Part shown: positions 1 to 10,172 of the stretch, in pieces | How the letters are laid out: every line of letters begins with the position of its first letter | Position numbering within the stretch: position 1 is the first letter of the stretch | DNA from: Escherichia phage vB_EcoM_G8 | Sequence record: NC_054915.1 | Reading direction: 5' to 3' (one strand) | DNA length: 64,000 nucleotides | The notes under the pieces: model-generated | Seen by the model: the letters and a program-made list of their open reading frames with translations, nothing else | Database searches by the model: none | What the model was told of the DNA's origin: nothing | Made by a program: the position numbers and the translations under genes

Positions 1-376
<376 letters not shown>

Positions 377-832
377 TTAAAAGAGGCTGTTCATTATTCG
401 GTAAAGTGAAGGACCCATCACATATTGCCACTGAGTACGAGGAATAAGGGCAAAAGCATCCATCTCTGGAATCATAACACCATCTTTATTTTCAAAATAA
501 GACTCGCAATGACAATTTCTGAACATCTCATGCTCTACTGGAATCGTATAATAAAATAACTGTAAGTCTTTATTACTAGAATATTTAAATACACCTAGGT
601 CTTCTAGAAGGTCTGGATTATAATTGCTAAAACCGGTCTCTTCTGAGCATTCTCTTCGTGCTGCATCTAATGCGCTTAAATCAGAATTTTCTACACGCCC
701 CTTTGGAATATCCCAGCGATGTGCCATCATTCCAGGCTTACGAGAACCAGTAACCCGTCCCATGAATAAATCTTTATCTTCTGTCATAAAGATAATACCA
801 GCTGATAATGTTTTCATTTTAATTTCCTGCAT
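377..832 (-). CDS. nudE: Nudix hydrolase
   Basis: 151 aa; Nudix box GRVENSDLSALDAARRECSEETGF; position immediately downstream of e as in T4 (e.1). Confidence 0.85.
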   Translation of the reverse strand: MQEIKMKTLSAGIIFMTEDKDLFMGRVTGSRKPGMMAHRWDIPKGRVENSDLSALDAARRECSEETGFSNYNPDLLEDLGVFKYSSNKDLQLFYYTIPVEHEMFRNCHCESYFENKDGVMIPEMDAFALIPRTQWQYVMGPSLYRIMNSLF

Positions 833-1302
833 TCGGTGATAAAATTATTTAAATTTTGAGTATATTTCTTTTCATCAAAAATCTTTTGCTGCCTACGTAA
901 ACGCCATGGCATTTCAATGAACGTGTACCATATCCCAGATAATATTGCTGCTGTAAAAATATTAACAAGTATGGTTAAAATAATCCAATCTCCCGTTCTG
1001 TCTACTGGACTTTCTCCAAAGAAGCAAAATACAAATGATGTCACAGGAAAACTAATAATATACCACAGAATCATAATCTTATCTGTGAACCAATCAGCGT
1101 TCGTTAACTTAGCGCGACCATTATGAATACACACGAATTTATCATCTGTTACAGTAAATGGCTTAGCTGCTTGATATCCCATTCTAAACTCCCTAATCAA
1201 CAAATTTTTCATATCTTCGGAACAACCATTCCAGTCAACTCTATCAACTGAAATGCCATCATCCCCATCATCTAAATCATACCAGCGAGTTTTTAAAATC
1301 AT
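814..1302 (-). CDS. hypothetical membrane protein (e.2-like position)
   Basis: 162 aa ORF with hydrophobic segments; 4-nt overlap with neighbours suggests translational coupling. Confidence 0.6.
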   Translation of the reverse strand: MILKTRWYDLDDGDDGISVDRVDWNGCSEDMKNLLIREFRMGYQAAKPFTVTDDKFVCIHNGRAKLTNADWFTDKIMILWYIISFPVTSFVFCFFGESPVDRTGDWIILTILVNIFTAAILSGIWYTFIEMPWRLRRQQKIFDEKKYTQNLNNFITECRKLK

Positions 1303-1661
1303 TTAATTTTCCTACAATCGCTCACAAACTCTTCCATTGATTCTTTTTCAATATAAGACATGTAGCTATTATATTCTTTTAATTGTATTTTGTAATCTTT
1401 TTTTCTTTGCCAATTTATTTTAAAATTATCATAATGAAAATATAACATTGTACCAAAGAATGAAAATAATGAAATCGCTATAGTAAAACGAAGTTCACTC
1501 CAAACCTCTGTTATAATTACTGTGCCGTCGATGTTTAAAATAAAACAGTCAATTAACAATCCAATAAGACTACCTGCAAGAGCTGCAAATGCTGATACGG
1601 CAAGAATTAATAGTGCCTCAGGAAACGAATATTTAACTTTATTTAGTTTTGGCTTTTGCAT
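1299..1661 (-). CDS. hypothetical membrane protein (e.3-like position)
   Basis: 120 aa ORF, two predicted hydrophobic helices. Confidence 0.6.
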   Translation of the reverse strand: MQKPKLNKVKYSFPEALLILAVSAFAALAGSLIGLLIDCFILNIDGTVIITEVWSELRFTIAISLFSFFGTMLYFHYDNFKINWQRKKDYKIQLKEYNSYMSYIEKESMEEFVSDCRKIK

Positions 1662-2056
1662 CGTGATTCCTTAACAAATTTCATAATTTCATCAAATTCA
1701 TACGCGGCAAGTTTAAGCTGATGTTCCTTTTTAATCTTTTTACACTGTGCTTTCCAATCACGTACGCGTTTACGATAATGCCTTCCTTGATACCAGTATC
1801 CTACCCAATTTACGGGTACTAATAAAAGTGGAACTATTAATGGAAGAATTAGCATTAACACAAGTATTTCGCCAGAATCAATATCAGTCATAACATCTAA
1901 AATACCTCCAATAATCAATAGAATTACAAATGATATGAGTATAACAGGACCTATTAATACATCAGTAGGAATTAGCTGACGCTTTAGTTCATACTTCACA
2001 GGTTTACTTGGAAGGTATAGTGATGGCTTTGACATATTCTCTACATTCCTTAACAA
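1643..2056 (-). CDS. hypothetical membrane protein (e.4-like position); start may be the internal Met at about 2035
   Basis: 137 aa ORF with a long hydrophobic core. Confidence 0.55.
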   Translation of the reverse strand: MLRNVENMSKPSLYLPSKPVKYELKRQLIPTDVLIGPVILISFVILLIIGGILDVMTDIDSGEILVLMLILPLIVPLLLVPVNWVGYWYQGRHYRKRVRDWKAQCKKIKKEHQLKLAAYEFDEIMKFVKESRCKSQN

Positions 2057-2609
2057 ATTTTTCTAATAATAAATCGCTTTCAAAATTAGGATTTTCCACG
2101 AATTTATCAAAAAGATCATCAACGATAGTTAAGATATTCTTTTTATTAAGAATACGCTTATTTTCATATTTTGTTTCAGAGTCAACTATAAGAGTAAAGA
2201 AATATTTCTTTCCCTGAAATTTTACCGTAGTATCAATATAGAACAAATTTGACTTTTGTAAATTACGTTTAAACCATGCGTCACTTAAACTGTAAACGCC
2301 AAGATAATCATAATCGTCATTTAAATAACAAACTGTCCATTCAGGAGAAATGAAATCAGTAAATTCAACATCAAAATCACACGTCAATGAATGAATTGAT
2401 TCAATACTTTTAATGAGTATTCCAGGACGTATTAAAGACTTTTTACCTTTATAAAATCCAGAAAGACTTTCATCAGTTTCGTATGAAGACCCCCAATAGT
2501 AATTACGTCCTTCTGCCATACGTTTAAGAGCATTTAGTAATTGATCTGGAACATCAACCTGTCTTTGGAACTCTTCAAACATTGAATTGAAATCACTTTG
2601 CATTTTCAT
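2004..2609 (-). CDS. hypothetical protein (e.5-like position)
   Basis: 201 aa ORF in the conserved e.x series. Confidence 0.6.
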   Translation of the reverse strand: MKMQSDFNSMFEEFQRQVDVPDQLLNALKRMAEGRNYYWGSSYETDESLSGFYKGKKSLIRPGILIKSIESIHSLTCDFDVEFTDFISPEWTVCYLNDDYDYLGVYSLSDAWFKRNLQKSNLFYIDTTVKFQGKKYFFTLIVDSETKYENKRILNKKNILTIVDDLFDKFVENPNFESDLLLEKFVKECREYVKAITIPSK

Positions 2610-2650
2610 TCCTATTTACTCCAAGTAATAGGGGCCGAAGCCCCTTATCA

Positions 2651-3244
2651 TTATTTCAGAGAATTAATATATTCCTGGACATCGGCAGAGGTAGTTTCAA
2701 CCCCAGAAATATTGCCGTTAAAAGTTTCAACTCGAGCAAGGGTATCTTCAATATCAACCTTAGTCAGTGCTGCAATTTCAACTACATCATCGGCAGTACT
2801 AATTCCAAGGGCATTTGCCGCACGAGTTTCACGAATATATTCCAATTTAACTGCAAGTTCTTGGCGAGCATCATCTAACTCAACTACTTTCTTGGCGATT
2901 TCAATTCGCATTTCAGCATAACCGTCAGCTTTAGTAGTCAACTGCTCAGCTGTTCGGCGATATAGTAAACCGAGTTTAGCATGCATTGTTACATCTTGAC
3001 CTTCGGAAAGAAGTTTTCGAATTTCACGCTCTTTTGATTCGGCCTGTCGATTCTTTTCGATAACAAGTTCACGAATACGTTTTTCTTCATTAATAGATTT
3101 AATAGAAGCAGTTTTTAGATCTTTAATTTTATCAAGTAGTTTTGCTGCTGCAGCAGTATACTGTTCTTCAACAGATAGATTTTTAGCCATAGCAGAACCA
3201 AGTTTAGTGCGAATAAACTCAACAATTTTCTTCAGTGTGTTCAT
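2651..3244 (-). CDS. PspA/IM30-like coiled-coil protein (e.6-like position)
   Basis: 197 aa, heptad-rich; segment [10 protein letters not shown] resembles the PspA DDTLARMKKE region; family call from memory only. Confidence 0.5.
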
Positions 3245-3301
3245 AGTATTTCCTTAGATTGATACAATTAGATAATATCACGTTTTTAATAGATTGTAAA
3301 C

Positions 3302-3637
3302 TTATTCTTCGTCTATCTCATCGATAAAGACGTCAATGGCCTCGATAACGGCATCATTGATAGCCAATAAAGTAAAATCATCGTCAGTACCTTTATAAGA
3401 TTCTGAAGCATTGATATATGCTTGATTGACGAGTTCCCAAGCCTTTTTAAAATAAGGAGTTTCATCATCAGGACAAATATCCCGCACACCTTCAAAGATA
3501 CGATTGGCATAATCTAACACCCATTGTACAGGCATGTTTTGAGAACGTTCGTTAAACTCTTTAAATTCCTTAGATTCAAAAAGCTCTTCAGGATAATAAT
3601 TTCGATTACAAAAAGCTTTACTAAAGTTACGTTTCAT
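3302..3637 (-). CDS. hypothetical acidic protein (e.7-like position)
   Basis: 111 aa ORF. Confidence 0.6.
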   Translation of the reverse strand: MKRNFSKAFCNRNYYPEELFESKEFKEFNERSQNMPVQWVLDYANRIFEGVRDICPDDETPYFKKAWELVNQAYINASESYKGTDDDFTLLAINDAVIEAIDVFIDEIDEE

Positions 3638-3692
3638 AATGTTCTCCTCAAGCTACAGGCTCATAATATCTCAATCATGAGCCTGTGTAAAC

Positions 3693-3968
3693 TTATTTCA
3701 TATTATTGAAATATTCTTCTGCGATTTCGTCGTTATCATGGTAAACTTTAGAAGACAGTTTAACATAACCTTCAGCAGTGAACATGTTAATCACAACCTT
3801 TACAGTATACCACTGACCATCTTCATTACCCATTACTGCGTAAGTTTCAAACATCGGATGATCAGGACCGATAACTTTAATATCATTCACTGTACGACCG
3901 AAATCTTCTGAAACACATTTCATAAAGAAGTTGAACAGTTCGCCGTAATTATCCATTTCATTCTCCAA
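3693..3968 (-). CDS. hypothetical protein (e.8-like position)
   Basis: 91 aa ORF. Confidence 0.6.
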   Translation of the reverse strand: MENEMDNYGELFNFFMKCVSEDFGRTVNDIKVIGPDHPMFETYAVMGNEDGQWYTVKVVINMFTAEGYVKLSSKVYHDNDEIAEEYFNNMK

Positions 3969-4161
3969 GTTGTTTTCTGTATCAGTAGTTGATAGTTGTA
4001 TAGTACCATGGAAGAACAGGGATGTAAACAGTTTTGTGAAAAATTTTTAAAAAATTTTAGGGAATTCTAGGGTCAGGAGGGGCAATTAAAAGGTAGGATA
4101 ATATTATTATAAAGGGTATAAACTAAATGATGCCTAGAGAGGCCCGGAAAGGCCTAGATAC

Positions 4162-4190
4162 CAAAAAGCCCCAACCTTTTGGTCGGGGCT
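4162..4190 (-). terminator. rho-independent terminator hairpin (copy 1 of a repeated hairpin)
   Basis: AGCCCCAACC-TTTT-GGTCGGGGCT stem-loop; the A-run on the plus strand gives a U-run on the minus transcript. Confidence 0.6.
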
Positions 4191-4197
4191 AAGAATG

Positions 4198-4659
4198 TTA
4201 TTTGATTTGTTTAGCAGACCAAATGCGGTCTTTGATGATTTTTTGGAGGTCTTCAACATACTCTAGGTCATGAGCATGTGGATTATCTTTGAAACTATAA
4301 GCACGCGCAAGTTTCTGGCCTTCGGTCTTAATTATCAAAAGTTCTTTAAGAATTGCTTCATACCTAGAGATAATTCCTTTAGCAATATTTTTTTCTTGTG
4401 CTGCTTTAGGGTCAGCCTTAGGAGCAGGTTTACCAGAAGGTTTTTCGAAAGCCGCACCAGTAGCAACCAGGCTTTTCCAGGCGGTGGTAACATAGTTACC
4501 CACAAAGCCTTCAGCTCTCATATCGTCATAGAACTTGTACCGAGATTCGTCAGAAGCATCTTTATAAGAATATTTACCAGCTTTAATAGCAGCAGTTGCT
4601 ACAGCGCGAACATCTGAAGCGGATGCTTCGGTCATTAAAAATTGAGCATAAGTTTTCAT
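4198..4659 (-). CDS. hypothetical protein with an N-terminus resembling a capsid targeting sequence
   Basis: 153 aa; N-terminus MKTYAQFLMTEA resembles the T4 internal-protein CTS (MKTYQEFIAEA); Ala/Lys-rich. Confidence 0.6.
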   Translation of the reverse strand: MKTYAQFLMTEASASDVRAVATAAIKAGKYSYKDASDESRYKFYDDMRAEGFVGNYVTTAWKSLVATGAAFEKPSGKPAPKADPKAAQEKNIAKGIISRYEAILKELLIIKTEGQKLARAYSFKDNPHAHDLEYVEDLQKIIKDRIWSAKQIK

Positions 4660-4696
4660 TGTTATTTCCTGTGTTAATTAACTCATCTATTTATAT

Positions 4697-4725
4697 CAAA
4701 AAGCCCCAACCTTTCGGTCGGGGCT
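4697..4725 (-). terminator. rho-independent terminator hairpin (copy 2, 1-nt difference from copy 1)
   Basis: AGCCCCAACC-TTTC-GGTCGGGGCT preceded by an A-run on the plus strand. Confidence 0.6.
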
Positions 4726-4739
4726 AAGCCTTGCTGCAA

Positions 4740-5035
4740 CCTTGTCGGGGTTCCACCTGCTAAGGCAAGTGTTTGTACGAAACGCCGGGACTTGAACCCG
4801 GTTATTAAGTAGTTGACGCTACTCAATATTTTTAAAAGGCCATATCTCGACCATATCCGAACGTTCCGTCAAAAACGCTACTCGGCTTATGGCAAAGATA
4901 TTTCCTCGAATCGATAATTCGGTGCGCCGTTTCTGCTGTGATGTAAGAGGGCATTAGCAGATCGTAAAGATTTGTTAATGCCAGTCCTTAAACAGGGAAC
5001 ATCAGTCCGACGACTTACCGGTAGCGACCCGGTTT
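4740..5035 (-). ncRNA. putative stable small RNA(s), by analogy with T4 species 1/2 RNAs (rnaC/rnaD)
   Basis: No ORF; tRNA-like T-arm motif CCGGGTTCAAGTCCCGG on the minus strand (about 4786-4802); boundaries not determined. Confidence 0.35.
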
Positions 5036-5036
5036 C

Positions 5037-5387
5037 TTAATATTCTTTTAAAGCATCAATTTGTTCACGGCGTTTACGCCATAAATCAATTGCTTCATAC
5101 GCGGATTCAACATTTCGAATTGGTCGGCATTTATATAAAGATTTGTGATTTTGATATTGTGTAGATAACGGAATTTTATCTAAAAGGTCTTTACGTTCAA
5201 AATATTCGTAACCATCTAAACCAAATGAACGATTTTTGAGAAATTGCCAATGACCATATTCGTTTTCGATATAAACATAATCTGCGTGCTGATAAAGCAA
5301 ATTAATTACGCGTTCAGAAATAACAGTGTCATTGTGATTAAAATAGAATGTTAAATCATGAACTACTAAATAAACATTACCTTTCAT
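5037..5387 (-). CDS. hypothetical protein
   Basis: 116 codons from ATG at 5387 with GAGGAAA RBS; the longer ORF-track start at 5435 would overlap tRNA-Arg. Confidence 0.55.
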   Translation of the reverse strand: MKGNVYLVVHDLTFYFNHNDTVISERVINLLYQHADYVYIENEYGHWQFLKNRSFGLDGYEYFERKDLLDKIPLSTQYQNHKSLYKCRPIRNVESAYEAIDLWRKRREQIDALKEY

Positions 5388-5405
5388 ATTTTCCTCACTT
5401 ATAAT

Positions 5406-5482
<77 letters not shown>

Positions 5483-5485
5483 TAA

Positions 5486-6151
5486 TTAAAATTTCATTTT
5501 TCGACCTTTAAACCATCCTTCTGGAATTGGGTCAGTTTTCTTAATACGTTTAGAAACTTTTTCATCTAATGAATGAATCCACATCATACCAAATTGAGAA
5601 TTCTTTTCGCCCTGTTGGTGTTTATTTCTGGCGTGAGATTCTTTCATTTTATTAATAGTTTCAGGAGTATGGGTCTTACCCAAGAAAGATTTAGTATTTA
5701 AAAATTTCTCTCTATACTCAGAATTATCCCAAAGCTGTTTAAACCTTTCTGAACCCATTTTACGATATTTTTCTTTAAGGTCTGGGTCGTTCTCAAATCT
5801 GGTTTTAAAAGCGGCAGCTCCTTTTAAGGAAGCTTCTTTCTTTTTATCCAAATATTCTTTAGTGTTTAAATGGTCCCAACCACCTTCACCACCTAATTTC
5901 AAATTATAAACATCAGGGCGCTTTAAAAACTCTTCAGTCACAATATTCTTTTCTGACTCAAACATAGAGGTTTTATCGTCAAAGAACTCTAATATTTCTT
6001 TAGAAAAATTTTCTATACCATACTTATCTTGGGCTCTTTTTAATAATTTACCAGAACCCATATATCCATCATCTAAATTTTCGGTAGAATGAGCGCCTAT
6101 ATAGATTTTATTATTAATTTTATTTGTTATTTTATAAGTGTAATGGAACAT
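5486..6151 (-). CDS. segB: GIY-YIG homing endonuclease
   Basis: 221 aa; N-terminal YTYKITNKINNKIYIGAHS...YMGSGK GIY-YIG motif; sits between tRNA-Arg and tRNA-Ile as T4 segB does. Confidence 0.85.
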   Translation of the reverse strand: MFHYTYKITNKINNKIYIGAHSTENLDDGYMGSGKLLKRAQDKYGIENFSKEILEFFDDKTSMFESEKNIVTEEFLKRPDVYNLKLGGEGGWDHLNTKEYLDKKKEASLKGAAAFKTRFENDPDLKEKYRKMGSERFKQLWDNSEYREKFLNTKSFLGKTHTPETINKMKESHARNKHQQGEKNSQFGMMWIHSLDEKVSKRIKKTDPIPEGWFKGRKMKF

Positions 6152-6192
6152 AAATATCTCCTATTTCTAGGAGTATTTATGTTCTCAAAATA

Positions 6193-6264
6193 TGGCCCTG
6201 GGTGGAATTGAACCACCATCTGGCGATTATGAGTCGCTTGCTTGAACCTTCCAGCTACAGGGCC
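6193..6264 (-). tRNA. tRNA-Ile (anticodon CAU, presumably modified)
   Basis: Acceptor GGCCCTG/CAGGGCC; anticodon loop CTCATAA; called Ile rather than Met by analogy with the T4 set. Confidence 0.7.
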
Positions 6265-6270
6265 TTGATA

Positions 6271-6343
6271 TGCTGATTGACGGAATCGAACCGCCGACGT
6301 CCTCATTACAAGTGAGGTGCTCTACCTACTGAGCTAAATCAGC
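6271..6343 (-). tRNA. tRNA-Thr (anticodon UGU)
   Basis: Acceptor GCTGATT/AATCAGC; anticodon loop with TGT; T-loop GGTTCGATTCC. Confidence 0.8.
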
Positions 6344-6350
6344 GAAATTA

Positions 6351-6437
6351 CGGAGGCGATAGGATTTGAACCTATGAGTCGCCGGAGCGACTGCCGGTTT
6401 TCAAGACCGGTGCATTAAACCACTCTGCCACGCCTCC
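6351..6437 (-). tRNA. tRNA-Ser (anticodon UGA), long variable arm
   Basis: 87 nt; acceptor GGAGGCG/CGCCTCC; anticodon loop CTTGAAA. Confidence 0.8.
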
Positions 6438-6439
6438 AG

Positions 6440-6513
6440 TCTCCGTGGCAGGATTTGAACCTACGACATTCTGCTCCCAAAGCAGACGCTCTACCAAACT
6501 GAGCTACACGGAG
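6440..6513 (-). tRNA. tRNA-Pro (anticodon UGG)
   Basis: Acceptor CTCCGTG/CACGGAG; anticodon loop TTTGGGA; T-loop GGTTCAAATCC. Confidence 0.8.
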
Positions 6514-6525
6514 TAAATTAAATTT

Positions 6526-6597
<72 letters not shown>

Positions 6598-6604
6598 AAA
6601 CTTT

Positions 6605-6690
6605 GGTACGAGAAGTGGGACTCGAACCCACAAGGAAATCATTCCGCAGCATTTTAAGTGCTGTGCCTTTACCAATTTGACCATTCTCGC
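6605..6690 (-). tRNA. tRNA-Leu (anticodon UAA), CCA encoded
   Basis: Acceptor GCGAGAA; anticodon loop CTTAAAA; long variable arm. Confidence 0.8.
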
Positions 6691-6691
6691 G

Positions 6692-6765
6692 CTGGGAATA
6701 AAGGACTCGAACCTTTGCATCTAGCAGTCAAAGTGCTGTGCCTTTACCAATTTGGCTAATTCCCA
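6692..6765 (-). tRNA. tRNA-Gln (anticodon UUG)
   Basis: Acceptor TGGGAAT/ATTCCCA; anticodon loop with TTG; T-loop GGTTCGAGTCC. Confidence 0.8.
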
Positions 6766-6862
6766 ATTATTAACAAAGGCTCTCAAACAAGAACCCTTGA
6801 TGATAGAGGGTATTAATCAGTGCGGTATGAATTAATAATAACAAATAATTCTTAAAGCATAT

Positions 6863-7150
6863 TTACCATTTATGATAATACATATTTACGATGCATTCAA
6901 GACCCAAAGGATTCTTGAAAATATCATATTCAAGAGGACCTTTTTCTGTTTCAATAAAGAAATCAAAATTTACTGTATTAAATTTACGGTCTTCCTTCAC
7001 TAATTTAACTTGAGAAGATGAACGGTCAACATAAACCTTTTCAACTTCAAAACATGTTAAAACGCCATAATCATCAATCAAGGCTTTAGCCGCGTCTTGA
7101 TCATATTTATATCCATTTTCAATGGATGATACTTTAGCATAAAGAATCAT
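6863..7150 (-). CDS. hypothetical protein in the variable ipI-type locus
   Basis: 95 aa ORF between the tRNA cluster and 57B. Confidence 0.55.
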   Translation of the reverse strand: MILYAKVSSIENGYKYDQDAAKALIDDYGVLTCFEVEKVYVDRSSSQVKLVKEDRKFNTVNFDFFIETEKGPLEYDIFKNPLGLECIVNMYYHKW

Positions 7151-7152
7151 TA

Positions 7153-7533
7153 TCAGCCTTCATCAACAATAGTATGAGTGTGGGCATTTACAATTTGCCA
7201 CCAATCAAAGCGATTAGAACCATACATCAGTTTGTTTTCATTTTCTTTGATAATATCACGGAGTTCATCTTCGGTAGCGGCTTTCGCGATTAAATCAGCA
7301 TATCCACCACGAGGATAATAATTATCACCTGCAAAAAGTAAAAAGTTTGGTTTAATATTATTAAACTCTTCAAGAGTAATAACTGTTCCACCAGGTTGAA
7401 CAATATCTACATAACTATATCCTAATTTTTGAGCAGCATCTACTGCTTCAAGCAGGGTATCATGAGCCCATCCAATTTGGCAATCTGGCTTTTCAGATGG
7501 ATTAGCCTGATAATCCGCGTACACTTTATACAT
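7153..7533 (-). CDS. hypothetical protein in the variable ipI-type locus
   Basis: About 127 aa from Met MYKVYADYQ with AAGGTGA RBS; the ORF track gives a longer start at 7572. Confidence 0.55.
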   Translation of the reverse strand: MYKVYADYQANPSEKPDCQIGWAHDTLLEAVDAAQKLGYSYVDIVQPGGTVITLEEFNNIKPNFLLFAGDNYYPRGGYADLIAKAATEDELRDIIKENENKLMYGSNRFDWWQIVNAHTHTIVDEG

Positions 7534-7534
7534 T

Positions 7535-7720
7535 CTATTCACCTTTAGAAATTTTATCCATAACGATAGCAATTAAACCAATTAAAAATGCTACTACAAG
7601 TGAAAAAACATTTTCTGCTGTAGTCAATAATCCGCATATAAATCCAACAAACATTGAAAAACTAAAAGCGGAAGCAGAAATTGCAATAGCAACATTTCGA
7701 ATTAATTCACAGCGTTTCAT
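7535..7720 (-). CDS. small predicted membrane protein
   Basis: 61 aa with two hydrophobic helices. Confidence 0.45.
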   Translation of the reverse strand: MKRCELIRNVAIAISASAFSFSMFVGFICGLLTTAENVFSLVVAFLIGLIAIVMDKISKGE

Positions 7721-7788
7721 TTTATTCTCCTCAGTAGTTGATAGGGTAATAATATCACTACCCTATCTAAAAGTAAACGGTTTATAAA

Positions 7789-8097
7789 CTATTTTATTCC
7801 GCGTGATGCAATTGTGTTCTGCCGTTTAACACCAGTCTGTTTAAAGTCATGATTGTCGATTTGATCGGTACGAGCAACTCCGAATGATGATTTGATCTTA
7901 GCCTTAGATCCTTTAGTTATAGAAATAAACATCTCGGAAGCCCCTTTCTTAAAGTCCGAGGCGATTACTTCAACGCCGTTCTTAGCAAGTGACTTCAGAA
8001 TTGCCTCAGCATACTCATCGTCAAGACTCGCCTGAGTATTAATAACGAATGTCTTTGGCGCAGCCGCTTCATTGATAAATTCTTTAAATGTTTTCAT
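7789..8097 (-). CDS. internal-protein-like capsid-targeted protein (IPI-like)
   Basis: 102 aa; N-terminus MKTFKEFINE/AAAP matches the T4 internal-protein CTS and the gp21 protease L/I-x-E cleavage motif; sits at the ipI position next to 57B. Confidence 0.65.
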   Translation of the reverse strand: MKTFKEFINEAAAPKTFVINTQASLDDEYAEAILKSLAKNGVEVIASDFKKGASEMFISITKGSKAKIKSSFGVARTDQIDNHDFKQTGVKRQNTIASRGIK

Positions 8098-8169
8098 TTT
8101 ATTTTCCTAATTAATTTTGATGAGATAATAGTATCACTACCTCATCAGTATGTAAACAACTTTATGAAA

Positions 8170-8866
<697 letters not shown>

Positions 8867-8867
<1 letters not shown>

Positions 8868-9592
8868 TATAGTACCTTTAGTGTATTTTTAATTTTAGAA
8901 AAAAGTTCTTCAAGAGAACCATCATTTGTAATTACTAAATCGCCATCACGAATTGGCAATCCAGCTTCTGTAATATGTGTATCATTGGATTTTTGACCAG
9001 GACGAACTACATGAATTACTGTAGCACCCATCGCCCTAGCCGCATCCATTTCATGATCTTGACGGGTATCAGGAACGATATAATAATCATAACCTGATTT
9101 AAATTTATCAAGATAATCTAAAGCAAATAATTTTACCCAGTACATGCGGTCGAAGTTATTAACAATCAAATCCGTACCTAGGGCTTGCATCAGACGACGG
9201 ACTGACCATTGATCTTCAATATTATTTATAACGTCAATAATCTTATTAAATGCTACGGAATTAACTGATTCTTGTCCTTCGTCATCAAAAACAAACACAC
9301 CCTTAATTGGGCTTTTACCGTTAAGATAGCAAAATGCTTGTTCCATAATCGTGATTACTTCTGATTTAGTCAGATTTAAATTAGTCTCACGATCATAGTC
9401 AATTCCTTCAAACTCTTTACGAGTTAAGCAAGGATAGTCAGTGTTTTCTGCAAATACGCCCCATGCATAAGCCAATGCATCCTTAATAGGACCAGCAAGT
9501 TGGTATTTAACTGCAGAATAATTACTCATGATAAAATCAGCAGTAGTATCTTTTCCACTACGCTTTACACCGCTTAAAAAGATTAGTTTCAT
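8867..9592 (-). CDS. 1: deoxynucleoside monophosphate kinase
   Basis: 241 aa from Met MKLIFLSGVKRSGKDT (P-loop); GAGGAGA RBS; the ORF-track start at 9631 is an upstream extension. Confidence 0.85.
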
Positions 9593-9641
9593 GTGTTTCT
9601 CCTCAAATTTAATTAAGATTATAACACACAAAACTGAAGCA

Positions 9642-10172
9642 TTAAACTTCTGCTATAATTTTTCCATCTTTTTCTACTTGAAAATAGGTGTAAGGAATCG
9701 TTGCAGTACATACTAAAGCCGGGTCTGAATCTTCTGTGTAGCTAAATTCTACTTCAGACAGGTCAGAAACCCAAGGCTTATAAAAATTTATTGACATCAC
9801 GATTTCAGTTTTGCTATTATCTAAGATGTAAAGCGTAATGTATTCAGGACCTGTTTTTTGGGCAGTATTTTCACCTGTAAGATAGTTACTAGTTCCTAGC
9901 ATCCATTCATACATTCCTATCCATGACTTAAGTTCTTCATCAACTATAAATCTCACGATGAGTGGATCGTACTCAAATGTAGCACCCGGTCGTTGTGCTC
10001 GGCCCAGCCCAAACGGCCCAGTCACGGTATCAGTAACAGGTATTCTAATTCCTGGAATAGGAACTGACTGAGCATTTAAAGTAAAAGCAGATGTAGTATT
10101 ACTATGTGGTATTGATACTACAAAGTTAGTTGTATTTGCTTGGTTAAAAATTTGTTGCAGAGCTTGTGACAT
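9642..10172 (-). CDS. 3: tail completion / sheath stabilizer protein gp3
   Basis: 176 aa from Met MSQALQQIF with GAGGAA RBS; gene order 1-3-2-4. Confidence 0.8.
   Translation of the reverse strand: MSQALQQIFNQANTTNFVVSIPHSNTTSAFTLNAQSVPIPGIRIPVTDTVTGPFGLGRAQRPGATFEYDPLIVRFIVDEELKSWIGMYEWMLGTSNYLTGENTAQKTGPEYITLYILDNSKTEIVMSINFYKPWVSDLSEVEFSYTEDSDPALVCTATIPYTYFQVEKDGKIIAEV

What the first reader, a model, noticed from the sequence alone, without database searches (positions are those of the whole stretch)
4161..4729. Capsid-targeting-sequence-like ORF bracketed by two near-identical terminator hairpins
ORF 4198-4659 begins MKTYAQFLMTEA, close to the T4 internal-protein targeting sequence MKTYQEFIAEA that directs proteins into the prohead and is removed by the gp21 protease. 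It is flanked by two roughly 30-bp hairpins (about 4162-4190 and 4697-4725) differing by one loop base. That makes a discrete cassette between the e.x genes and the stable-RNA/tRNA region. Injected internal proteins in T-even phages are typically anti-restriction factors, so this is a candidate anti-defense cargo gene.
Basis: inference. Interest (0 to 1): 0.5.

Follow-up and report, generated by a model that had tools for sequence, protein, structure and literature searches.

The report
Unannotated T4-type internal head protein cassette
A small gene in a T4-like phage carries the short N-terminal tag that T4 uses to load proteins into its head. It sits between two copies of one terminator hairpin as a swappable cassette that T4 lacks, so it is probably one more injected "internal protein", a known kind of likely anti-defence factor.

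Summary
ORF 4198-4659 lies on the minus strand, is 153 aa long and starts MKTYAQFLMTEA. Only one other ORF in the 64 kb has such a start, and that one is the annotated internal-head-protein gene at the ipI locus.

The ORF is bracketed by two 36-nt direct repeats (34/36 identical). Each is a 10-bp-stem intrinsic terminator on the gene's strand. A TATAAATA late-promoter motif abuts the upstream copy.

T4, T2 and PST have one hairpin and no gene at this site, between e.8 and rnaC. RB69 has a different leader-bearing gene there, and Nami, DalCa and PhAPEC2 have both genes.

DNA identity to relatives is 95-100% in the flanks and 50-90% between the hairpins. dN/dS is about 0.1.

Distant homologues, including one in a Klebsiella phage, keep the EFL-x-E leader and the terminator/TATAAATA arrangement. 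The predicted mature protein (15.8 kDa, pI 9.4, 13% Lys) resembles T4 IPI*-III* in composition. Its fD1 homologue was detected in purified virions, in a low-specificity proteome.

All 510 GenBank copies are annotated "hypothetical", and the fold gives no functional clue.

Verdict: a new member of a known kind, namely T-even internal proteins in PeSL-like cassettes. Packaging is likely. An anti-defence role is inferred. In this allele the protease site is off-register (LMTE).

The parts
4158..4193 (-). Downstream copy of the 36-nt repeat. It is an intrinsic terminator (stem 4167-4190, loop AAAA, then UUUUU) that ends the cassette transcript before the e.8 early promoter.
   Evidence: Its left flank is identical to the T4 flank of the single T4 hairpin.
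4198..4659 (-). Cassette gene 'A': 153 aa, phrog_2280, no Pfam match. Candidate internal head protein. The predicted mature form is residues 12-153 (142 aa, 15.8 kDa, pI 9.36, 13.4% Lys).
   Evidence: dN/dS is about 0.1. The AF2 model is all-helical with a disordered leader.
4627..4659 (-). Codons 1-11, MKTYAQFLMTE. This is the capsid-targeting-sequence-like leader, with the putative prohead-protease cut after Glu11, before Ala12.
   Evidence: CTS determinants are taken from PMC9026906.
4665..4670 (-). Shine-Dalgarno-like AGGAAA, 5 nt upstream of the ATG.
   Evidence: Read directly from the sequence.
4688..4695 (-). TATAAATA, the T4 late-promoter consensus. It lies 28 nt upstream of the ATG and directly abuts the T-run of the upstream hairpin.
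   Evidence: It is conserved upstream of the homologues in VEc20, Nami, DalCa, Kha5h, fD1 and Klebsiella phage Nispero.
4693..4728 (-). Upstream copy of the 36-nt repeat (stem 4702-4725, loop GAAA). Its hairpin core is identical to the single T4 hairpin, which is the terminator following rnaC.
3693..3968 (-). Left flank: e.8 homologue (phrog_2678). A sigma-70-like early promoter lies at 4028-4000.
4777..4914 (-). Right flank: homologue of T4 stable RNA rnaC (species 1 RNA), mapped by alignment with the annotated T4 feature.
   Evidence: No Rfam model matched.

Best explanation
This is a self-contained late transcription unit: terminator hairpin, TATAAATA late promoter, ribosome-binding site, gene, terminator hairpin. 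It encodes a previously unannotated member of the T-even 'internal protein' class.

Proposed mechanism:
1. The 11-residue leader MKTYAQFLMTE acts as a capsid targeting sequence and brings the protein into the scaffolding core of the prohead (inferred from sequence).
2. The prohead protease gp21 probably removes the leader after Glu11 (inferred, and uncertain in this allele).
3. The basic, lysine-rich 15.8-kDa helical product stays with the packaged DNA and is injected with it (inferred).
4. It then most likely neutralises a host defence such as a GmrSD-type type IV restriction enzyme, as T4 Ip1, Ip2 and Ip3 each do (analogy only).

The unit sits at the rnaC terminator. The duplicated 36-nt hairpin serves as the homology patch at which the cassette is gained, lost or replaced by recombination between co-infecting T-even phages. 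This is shown by comparative mosaicism; the recombination mechanism itself is inferred.
For: Leader. Tyr4 and Phe7 are conserved. These are the targeting determinants of the IPIII CTS (PMC9026906). The leader falls within the range of nine annotated IP leaders. Only 2 ORFs in 64 kb start this way, and the other is the ipI-locus IP gene. Homologues at 34-60% identity have diverged leaders that still read EFL-x-E followed by A or G: MLKFNEFLAEG, MKFKEFLIEA, MKFKEFLAEA. Most close alleles have a canonical L-x-E: FLTE|Q, VLNE|A, VLTE|A.

Neighbour. The second cassette gene found in relatives (187 aa) shares only the leader with this one: 10/13 identities, and nothing else significant. That is the defining pattern of IPs.

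Expression. TATAAATA sits directly after the upstream hairpin and is conserved across three genera. The same hairpin+TATAAATA layout precedes gp24 and alt in this window.

Composition. pI 9.36 and 13.4% Lys, against 9.0-9.65 and 13-15.6% for T4 IPI*, IPII* and IPIII*. Only 6 of 65 window ORFs share this composition.

Virion. The 82%-identical fD1 Gp140 is listed as a particle-associated protein by LC-MS/MS at the strict threshold (PMC8309999 Table S3).

Real gene. dN/dS is about 0.1. It is present in 510 phage records.

Cassette. The site is empty with one hairpin in T4, T2 and PST. RB69 has B only. Nami, Pu-Krd-SF3, DalCa and PhAPEC2 have A+B. Against fD1, dS is 0.99 inside the gene and 0.04 in adjacent e.8. 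Identity is 95-100% in the flanks and 50-90% between the hairpins, with a sharp edge at 4688.

Function by analogy. Ip1, Ip2 and Ip3 each inhibit a different GmrSD (PMC12373910).
Against: - No direct evidence exists for this phage: no virion data and no N-terminal mapping.
- In this allele the protease motif is off-register. Glu is at position 11, so the site reads L-M-T-E with Met at P3, not L/I-x-E. Position 6 is Gln, where all annotated IP leaders examined have Glu.
- The fD1 proteome called 113-137 of 277 phage proteins, plus 672 host proteins, particle-associated. These include lysozyme, NudE and DenV. Detection there is therefore only weak support.
- T4's own ip genes have early-promoter/stem-loop upstream regions and no TATAAATA in the 90 nt shown. 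The regulation therefore differs.
- The AF2 model (pLDDT 77.6) has no informative match in PDB or BFVD and does not resemble IPI*. No Pfam or NCBIfam family matches.
- Nothing links the protein to any particular defence system.
Confidence: 0.65

Rival explanations
1. The protein is packaged, but it has a generic structural or DNA-condensing role in the head, such as neutralising DNA charge or filling the core. It is not a specific inhibitor of a host defence.
For: It is basic and lysine-rich like the other IPs. The T4 head review notes that lysines of the internal proteins contact DNA phosphates (PMC3012670). The fold gives no inhibitor-like clue. dN/dS of about 0.1 shows no sign of gene-wide diversifying selection.
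Against: The gene is dispensable: T4, T2 and PST lack it. Deeply diverged alleles are shuffled between near-identical backbones. All three T4 IPs that have been tested proved to be specific GmrSD inhibitors.
Confidence: 0.2
2. It is an ordinary non-packaged late accessory protein. The leader resemblance is a relic of recombination with ip genes or a chance similarity, and the protein acts in the infected cell.
For: The Glu6-to-Gln change and the off-register LMTE site depart from annotated leaders. The only virion evidence comes from a proteome that also lists many non-structural proteins. Every database copy is annotated 'hypothetical'.
Against: The leader pattern EFL-x-E followed by A or G persists in homologues down to about 35-50% identity and in another genus. 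A relic would have decayed. The AF2 model places residues 1-11 outside the folded domain. The adjacent unrelated cassette gene carries the same leader. The gene has a late promoter and IP-like composition.
Confidence: 0.13
3. The two hairpins are simply two terminators doing transcriptional insulation. Their near-identity reflects one duplication event, and they play no continuing role in moving the gene.
For: Hairpin+TATAAATA units also precede the core late genes gp24 and alt, so the layout is normal T4 late-gene punctuation. Cassette B is flanked by two different hairpin sequences. A double crossover in the conserved e.8 and rnaC flanks would move the cassette without any help from the hairpins.
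Against: The empty sites in T4, T2 and PST collapse exactly to one hairpin copy. The divergence edge against fD1 and Kha5h falls at 4688, at the hairpin/promoter junction. RB69 (B only) relates to Nami (A+B) by a deletion between two identical hairpins. T4-type recombination between PeSL stem-loops of this GGGG...CCCC type has been shown experimentally (PMC2839356).
Confidence: 0.25

Closest known systems
T4 internal proteins IPII and IPIII (and IPI), with the polymorphic Ip4-Ip10-type proteins of other T-even phages
   Same: N-terminal leader MKTY..F with Tyr4 and Phe7 and a Glu-Ala junction. Small, basic, lysine-rich and non-essential. Presence/absence polymorphism among close relatives. No similarity between family members apart from the leader (PMC12373910; PMC9026906).
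   Different: No sequence or fold similarity to any named IP; it matches phrog_2280 'unknown function'. It sits at a third site, between e.8 and rnaC, not at the ipI or ipII/ipIII loci. It is driven by a TATAAATA motif rather than the early promoter/stem-loop seen upstream of T4 ipI-III. The protease site in this allele is L-M-T-E.
PeSL (promoter-early stem-loop) cassettes of T4-type phages (Arbiol et al. 2010, PMC2839356; Comeau et al. 2014, PMC4122927)
   Same: A single accessory gene is bracketed by repeated GC-rich (GGGG...CCCC) stem-loop terminators joined to a promoter. Indels between close relatives have their ends in these elements. The cassette is transcriptionally insulated.
   Different: The promoter joined to the stem-loop is a late TATAAATA motif, not a strong sigma-70-like early promoter. 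No sigma-70-like site lies between the hairpin and the ATG. Mini-circle formation was not tested.
T4 alt, an injected ADP-ribosyltransferase processed by gp21
   Same: In this window alt is also preceded by a hairpin plus TATAAATA. It encodes a protein that is packaged, processed and injected (PMC9026906).
   Different: Alt is a large enzyme with a different leader (MELITELFDE) and is conserved rather than cassette-like.
Morons of lambdoid phages (Hendrix et al. 2000, as discussed in PMC2839356)
   Same: A single extra gene with its own promoter and terminator inserted between two resident genes.
   Different: Morons are typically expressed from the prophage and inserted by illegitimate recombination without conserved linkers. 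This cassette is in a virulent phage, is late-expressed and is bounded by repeated homology.

Membership tests
T-even internal proteins (CTS-bearing IPs) | N-terminal capsid targeting sequence of about 10 residues resembling MKTYQEFIAE, with the targeting determinants at positions 4 (Tyr/Phe) and 7 (Phe) | tested here: met
   MKTYAQFLMTE has Y4 and F7. Determinants are from PMC9026906. Only 2 ORFs in 64 kb match the pattern.
T-even internal proteins (CTS-bearing IPs) | gp21 prohead-protease site L/I-x-E followed by a small residue at the end of the leader | tested here: inconclusive
   This allele reads L8-M9-T10-E11|A12, so P3 is Met or the Leu is one residue out of register. Homologues have canonical sites: FLTE|Q, VLNE|A, FLAE|G, FLIE|A. 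The window's own gp23 site is FLTE|A.
T-even internal proteins (CTS-bearing IPs) | Physically present inside the mature virion | tested here: inconclusive
   The 82%-identical fD1 Gp140 is listed as particle-associated by LC-MS/MS (PMC8309999 Table S3). That data set also lists 113-137 of 277 phage proteins. There are no data for this phage.
T-even internal proteins (CTS-bearing IPs) | Leader removed during head maturation, giving a new N-terminus | not testable with these tools
   This needs N-terminal sequencing or semi-tryptic MS. The predicted peptide is ASASDVR.
T-even internal proteins (CTS-bearing IPs) | Small, basic, lysine-rich, non-essential and variable between related phages | tested here: met
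   The mature form is 15.8 kDa, pI 9.36, 13.4% Lys, against pI 9.0-9.65 and 13-15.6% Lys for T4 IPs. It is absent from T4, T2 and PST.
T-even internal proteins (CTS-bearing IPs) | Sequence or fold homology to a named IP family (a supporting feature, not a defining one) | tested here: not met
   phrog_2280 'unknown function'. No Pfam or NCBIfam match. No PDB or BFVD fold match outside its own family.
PeSL regulatory cassettes | GC-rich stem-loop that acts as a terminator, repeated on both sides of an accessory gene | tested here: met
PeSL regulatory cassettes | Strong sigma-70-like early promoter joined to the stem-loop | tested here: not met
   No sigma-70-like site lies between 4660 and 4700. 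A TATAAATA late motif is there instead.
PeSL regulatory cassettes | Indel and replacement end-points between close relatives fall in the elements | tested here: met
PeSL regulatory cassettes | Excision as mini-circles by recombination between flanking elements | not testable with these tools
   This needs inverse PCR on infected cells.
Inhibitors of GmrSD type IV restriction (Ip1/Ip2/Ip3-like function) | Relieves restriction of glucosyl-hmC phage by a specific GmrSD variant | not testable with these tools
   Analogy only (PMC12373910). There is no structural resemblance to IPI*.

The most novel reading that the evidence does not exclude
The rnaC terminator is a third landing pad for internal-protein genes in T-even phages, apparently not described before and additional to the ipI and ipII/ipIII loci. 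A terminator/late-promoter composite, a 'late' counterpart of PeSLs, serves there as the recombination linker. The two cassette proteins found at the site are A (this gene) and B (187 aa, in relatives). They would be new injected inhibitors of host defence systems that have not yet been matched to any phage counter-measure.
Probability: 0.35. Interest if true: 0.6.

Novelty: new member of a known kind. Interest (0 to 1): 0.42.

Why it matters
T4 Ip1, Ip2 and Ip3 were recently shown each to disarm a different GmrSD-type restriction enzyme. Every further leader-bearing protein is therefore a ready-made candidate for an unknown phage counter-defence and for finding its host target.

This family is in about 510 sequenced T4-like phages, many of them therapy candidates, and is labelled 'hypothetical' in all of them. 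Recognising it and its neighbour cassette B would:
- correct the annotation;
- add a third polymorphic internal-protein site to the T-even map;
- give a compact 535-bp natural cassette for loading cargo into T4-type heads.

Tried and rejected
- Fold-based function assignment. The AF2 model (pLDDT 77.6) was searched against PDB and BFVD and returned only members of its own family. A PDB sequence-profile search gave nothing below E = 0.3.
- Family libraries. Pfam and NCBIfam gave no match.
- Homology between cassette proteins A and B. Both hit phrog_2280 over their full length. BLASTP finds only the leader. hhalign gives 9% probability for a C-terminal helix. I do not claim homology.
- A named literature precedent for this gene. 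Searches on CTS, internal proteins, PeSL and GmrSD found none. Repoila et al. 1994 is not held, and the PST supplement is not held. Prior mention therefore cannot be excluded.
- Rfam. It has no model for rnaC or rnaD, and the hairpins match no family.
- A more distant genus. Gaprivervirus VR25 has unrelated ORFs without the leader at the equivalent place, so the landing pad is not universal.
- The 41-aa ORF 4134-4259 that overlaps the downstream hairpin. I rejected it as spurious.

Full report
**Context.** The window comes from a T4-like phage (Tequatrovirus). Region 1-10,000 is collinear with T4 from nudE to gene 3, with all genes on the minus strand:
- nudE (377-832)
- e.2 to e.8 (e.8 = 3693-3968)
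- the candidate ORF
- homologues of the stable RNAs rnaC and rnaD
- tRNA-Arg, segB and seven more tRNAs
- trna.2 to trna.4
- an ipI-locus gene (7789-8097)
- 57B, 57A and gene 1

The ORF product is identical to proteins of Escherichia phages Pu-Krd-SF3 and vB_EcoM_G8.

**Observation.**
- The ORF is 4198..4659 on the minus strand, 153 aa, and starts MKTYAQFLMTEA.
- T4 IPII and IPIII start MKTYQEFIAEA. IPI starts MKTFKEF...ITEA.
- A regular-expression scan of all ATG ORFs of at least 40 aa on both strands finds this kind of start only twice in 64 kb. The other is 7789-8097 (MKTFKEFINEA), which matches phrog_2667 'internal head protein'.
- The two hairpins are a 36-nt direct repeat (4158-4193 and 4693-4728, 34/36 identical). 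One difference is in the loop and one is in the 5' flank.
- The core pattern occurs twice, against zero expected in shuffles.
- Both copies score as intrinsic terminators on the gene's strand: 10-bp stem, 7 G-C pairs, 4-nt loop, T-run. Their folding energies are -19.5 and -21.3 kcal/mol.

**Anatomy of the unit.** Read in the direction of transcription, the order is:
1. rnaC
2. upstream hairpin
3. TTTTT
4. GA
5. TATAAATA (4695-4688)
6. 17 nt
7. AGGAAA
8. 5 nt
9. ATG (4659)
10. 153 codons
11. 4 nt
12. downstream hairpin
13. about 130 nt
14. the sigma-70-like early promoter of e.8 (4028-4000)

- TATAAATA is the T4 late-promoter consensus.
- No sigma-70-like site lies between the upstream hairpin and the ATG.
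- The same hairpin-plus-TATAAATA layout precedes gp24 and alt in this window. It is therefore normal punctuation for late head genes.
- T4's own ipI, ipII and ipIII have early-promoter/stem-loop upstream regions and no TATAAATA within 90 nt.

**It is a cassette.** At the same place, between e.8 and rnaC, related phages show four states.

| State | Phages |
|---|---|
| Empty: one hairpin, no ORF | T4, T2, PST and others |
| Gene A only | this window, VEc20, Kha5h, fD1, RB32 |
| Gene B only (here split by a frameshift) | RB69, HY03 |
| A and B, three hairpins delimiting two cassettes | Nami, Pu-Krd-SF3, DalCa, PhAPEC2 |

- In T4 the flanks match the left flank of window copy 1 and the right flank of window copy 2. 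The window therefore differs from T4 by a 535-bp unit of gene plus one hairpin.
- Gene B is a different gene of 187 aa, and it also starts with the leader: MKTYAEFLTEA|AKLPSE.
- Gene A occurs in 510 phage records and B in 165.
- All are annotated 'hypothetical protein'.

**Mosaic history.**
- Against fD1, Kha5h and DalCa, gene A has dS of 0.9-1.2. The adjacent e.8 has dS of 0.04-0.14.
- dN/dS of A is about 0.1, so A is a real gene under purifying selection.
- A sliding comparison shows 95-100% identity in e.8, in both hairpins and in rnaC. Identity is 50-90% between the hairpins.
- There is a sharp edge at 4688, the hairpin/promoter junction. The transition inside the 3' end of the gene is softer.
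- Deeply diverged alleles of A (153-aa FLMTE type and 157-aa FLNE..LNE type) are thus exchanged between near-identical backbones, with one breakpoint at the upstream hairpin.
- This matches the PeSL model of modular shuffling, in which repeated stem-loop/promoter elements of GGGG...CCCC type flank accessory genes and recombine (PMC2839356; PMC4122927). The difference is that the promoter here is late, not early.

**Is the leader a capsid targeting sequence?**
- The published dissection of the IPIII CTS places targeting mainly at residues 4 and 7, and processing at residues 8 and 10. gp21 cuts after L/I-x-E (PMC9026906).
- The candidate has Y4, F7 and L8, but Glu at position 11, giving L-M-T-E|A. 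Either Met sits at P3 or the Leu is one residue out of register.
- Nine annotated IP leaders from T4, PST, VR25, Pu-Krd-SF3 and fD1 vary considerably after position 7. All of them have Glu6, where this allele has Gln.
- Close alleles carry canonical sites: FLTE|Q, FLNE|V plus VLNE|A, and VLTE|A.
- Homologues at 34-60% identity have different leaders that still read EFL-x-E followed by A or G: MLKFNEFLAEG, MLEYSEFLKELFCEA, MKFKEFLIEA.
- Klebsiella Jiaodavirus Nispero gp113 starts MKFKEFLAEA. It sits just downstream of the tRNA cluster and is preceded by a different terminator hairpin followed directly by TATAAATA.
- A leader pattern and regulatory layout that persist across three genera while the rest diverges argue for function.
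- AlphaFold places residues 1-11 outside the fold with pLDDT below 50. The fold itself is a three-helix N-domain, a Lys/Pro/Ala-rich linker and a C-terminal helical hairpin.
- The window's own gp23 (FLTE|A), gp24 (LRE|S) and gp22 (IAE|A) carry standard protease sites.

**Other class features.**
- The predicted mature protein is 142 aa, 15.8 kDa, pI 9.36 and 13.4% Lys. This is within the range of T4 IPI*, IPII* and IPIII*.
- Only 6 of 65 ORFs in the window share this composition. They include both leader-bearing ORFs and the head/DNA-end proteins gp2 and gp4.
- A and B share 10 of 13 leader residues and nothing else that BLASTP or hhalign finds significant. PHROGs nevertheless lumps them in phrog_2280.

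**Virion evidence.**
- The 82%-identical homologue fD1 Gp140 is marked PPAP, meaning identified by LC-MS/MS in purified particles at the strict threshold. The source is Table S3 of PMC8309999.
- e.8, the gene directly next to it, and two small ORFs nearby were not detected.
- That study called 113-137 of 277 phage proteins and 672 host proteins particle-associated. The list includes lysozyme, NudE and DenV.
- This is therefore weak support, roughly a two-fold likelihood ratio.

**Function.**
- No Pfam or NCBIfam family matches, no solved relative exists, and no fold match appears beyond its own family.
- The best-supported guess is by analogy. Ip1, Ip2 and Ip3 share only the leader, and each inhibits a distinct GmrSD-type type IV restriction enzyme (PMC12373910).
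- IPs have long been viewed as a diverse set of injected anti-defence proteins (PMC3012670).
- I rate packaging as likely (about 0.7-0.75), proteolytic processing of this particular allele as uncertain (about 0.5), and a specific anti-defence role at about 0.35-0.45.

**Novelty.**
- The kinds are all known: polymorphic CTS-bearing internal proteins (Repoila 1994, cited in PMC12373910), CTS-directed packaging, and hairpin/promoter-bounded accessory cassettes.
- Three things appear not to be recorded. This family is not annotated as an IP candidate anywhere (0 of 510 annotations; PHROG 'unknown'). The e.8-rnaC terminator is not described as a third IP site holding up to two cassettes. The late-promoter version of the PeSL-like linker is not described either.
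- I could not read Repoila 1994, Comeau 2007 or the PST supplement, so an earlier mention cannot be excluded.
- The classification is therefore 'new member of a known kind', of moderate interest.

Noticed in passing
window 7789-8097 (-): The ipI-locus gene is 102 aa and starts MKTFKEFINEA|AAPK. It matches phrog_2667 'internal head protein' and is unrelated to mature T4 IPI. Its 90-nt upstream region (early promoter plus stem-loop) is almost identical to that of T4 ipI. This is the classical conserved-linker, variable-cargo pattern.
   Followed up: partly
L003 863-1426 (Nami); L004 3581-4147; L005 696-1258 (RB69); L012 2089-2652: A second leader-bearing cassette gene, 'B' (187 aa, MKTYAEFLTEA|AKLPSE), lies next to gene A in many phages and alone in RB69, where it is split by a frameshift into ORF148c/149c. 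It is at least 95% identical in 164 of 165 records, whereas A spans 60-100%. The two cassettes therefore have very different evolutionary dynamics.
   Followed up: partly
window 5037-5435 (-): An ORF of 114-132 aa (phrog_3355, RB69ORF150c-like, probable start MKGNVYLVV) lies between rnaD and tRNA-Arg, where T4 has no gene. The longest reading (TTG start) overlaps tRNA-Arg at 5406-5482.
   Followed up: no
window 22092 (+), 41461 (+), 59875 (-): Strong hairpins (-12 to -20 kcal/mol) directly followed by TATAAATA also precede an ORF starting MFIQEPKK, gp24 (MAKINELLRE) and alt (MELITELFDE). Terminator/late-promoter composites are a recurring punctuation of late head genes here.
   Followed up: partly
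L013 2495-3028 (Klebsiella phage Nispero gp113); P0013, P0015: Jiaodavirus homologues share the leader and the roughly 60-aa N-terminal domain (AGKYSYKD..ESRFQFARDM..GF) with gene A, but their C-terminal halves differ. This suggests domain shuffling within the family.
   Followed up: partly
P0009, P0010 (metagenomic proteins): These are chimeric proteins. One joins a trna.3-like N-terminus to the last 31 residues of A. The other joins residues 9-39 of A to a NudE-like C-terminus. They are either deletion variants of the e-tRNA region or assembly chimeras.
   Followed up: no
L010 677-2466 (Gaprivervirus VR25): At the equivalent position, between e.6 and rnaC, VR25 carries four unrelated ORFs without the leader. 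Two of them share a C-terminal motif, ARRA.ID..V......K..VQSYASNFRK.
   Followed up: no
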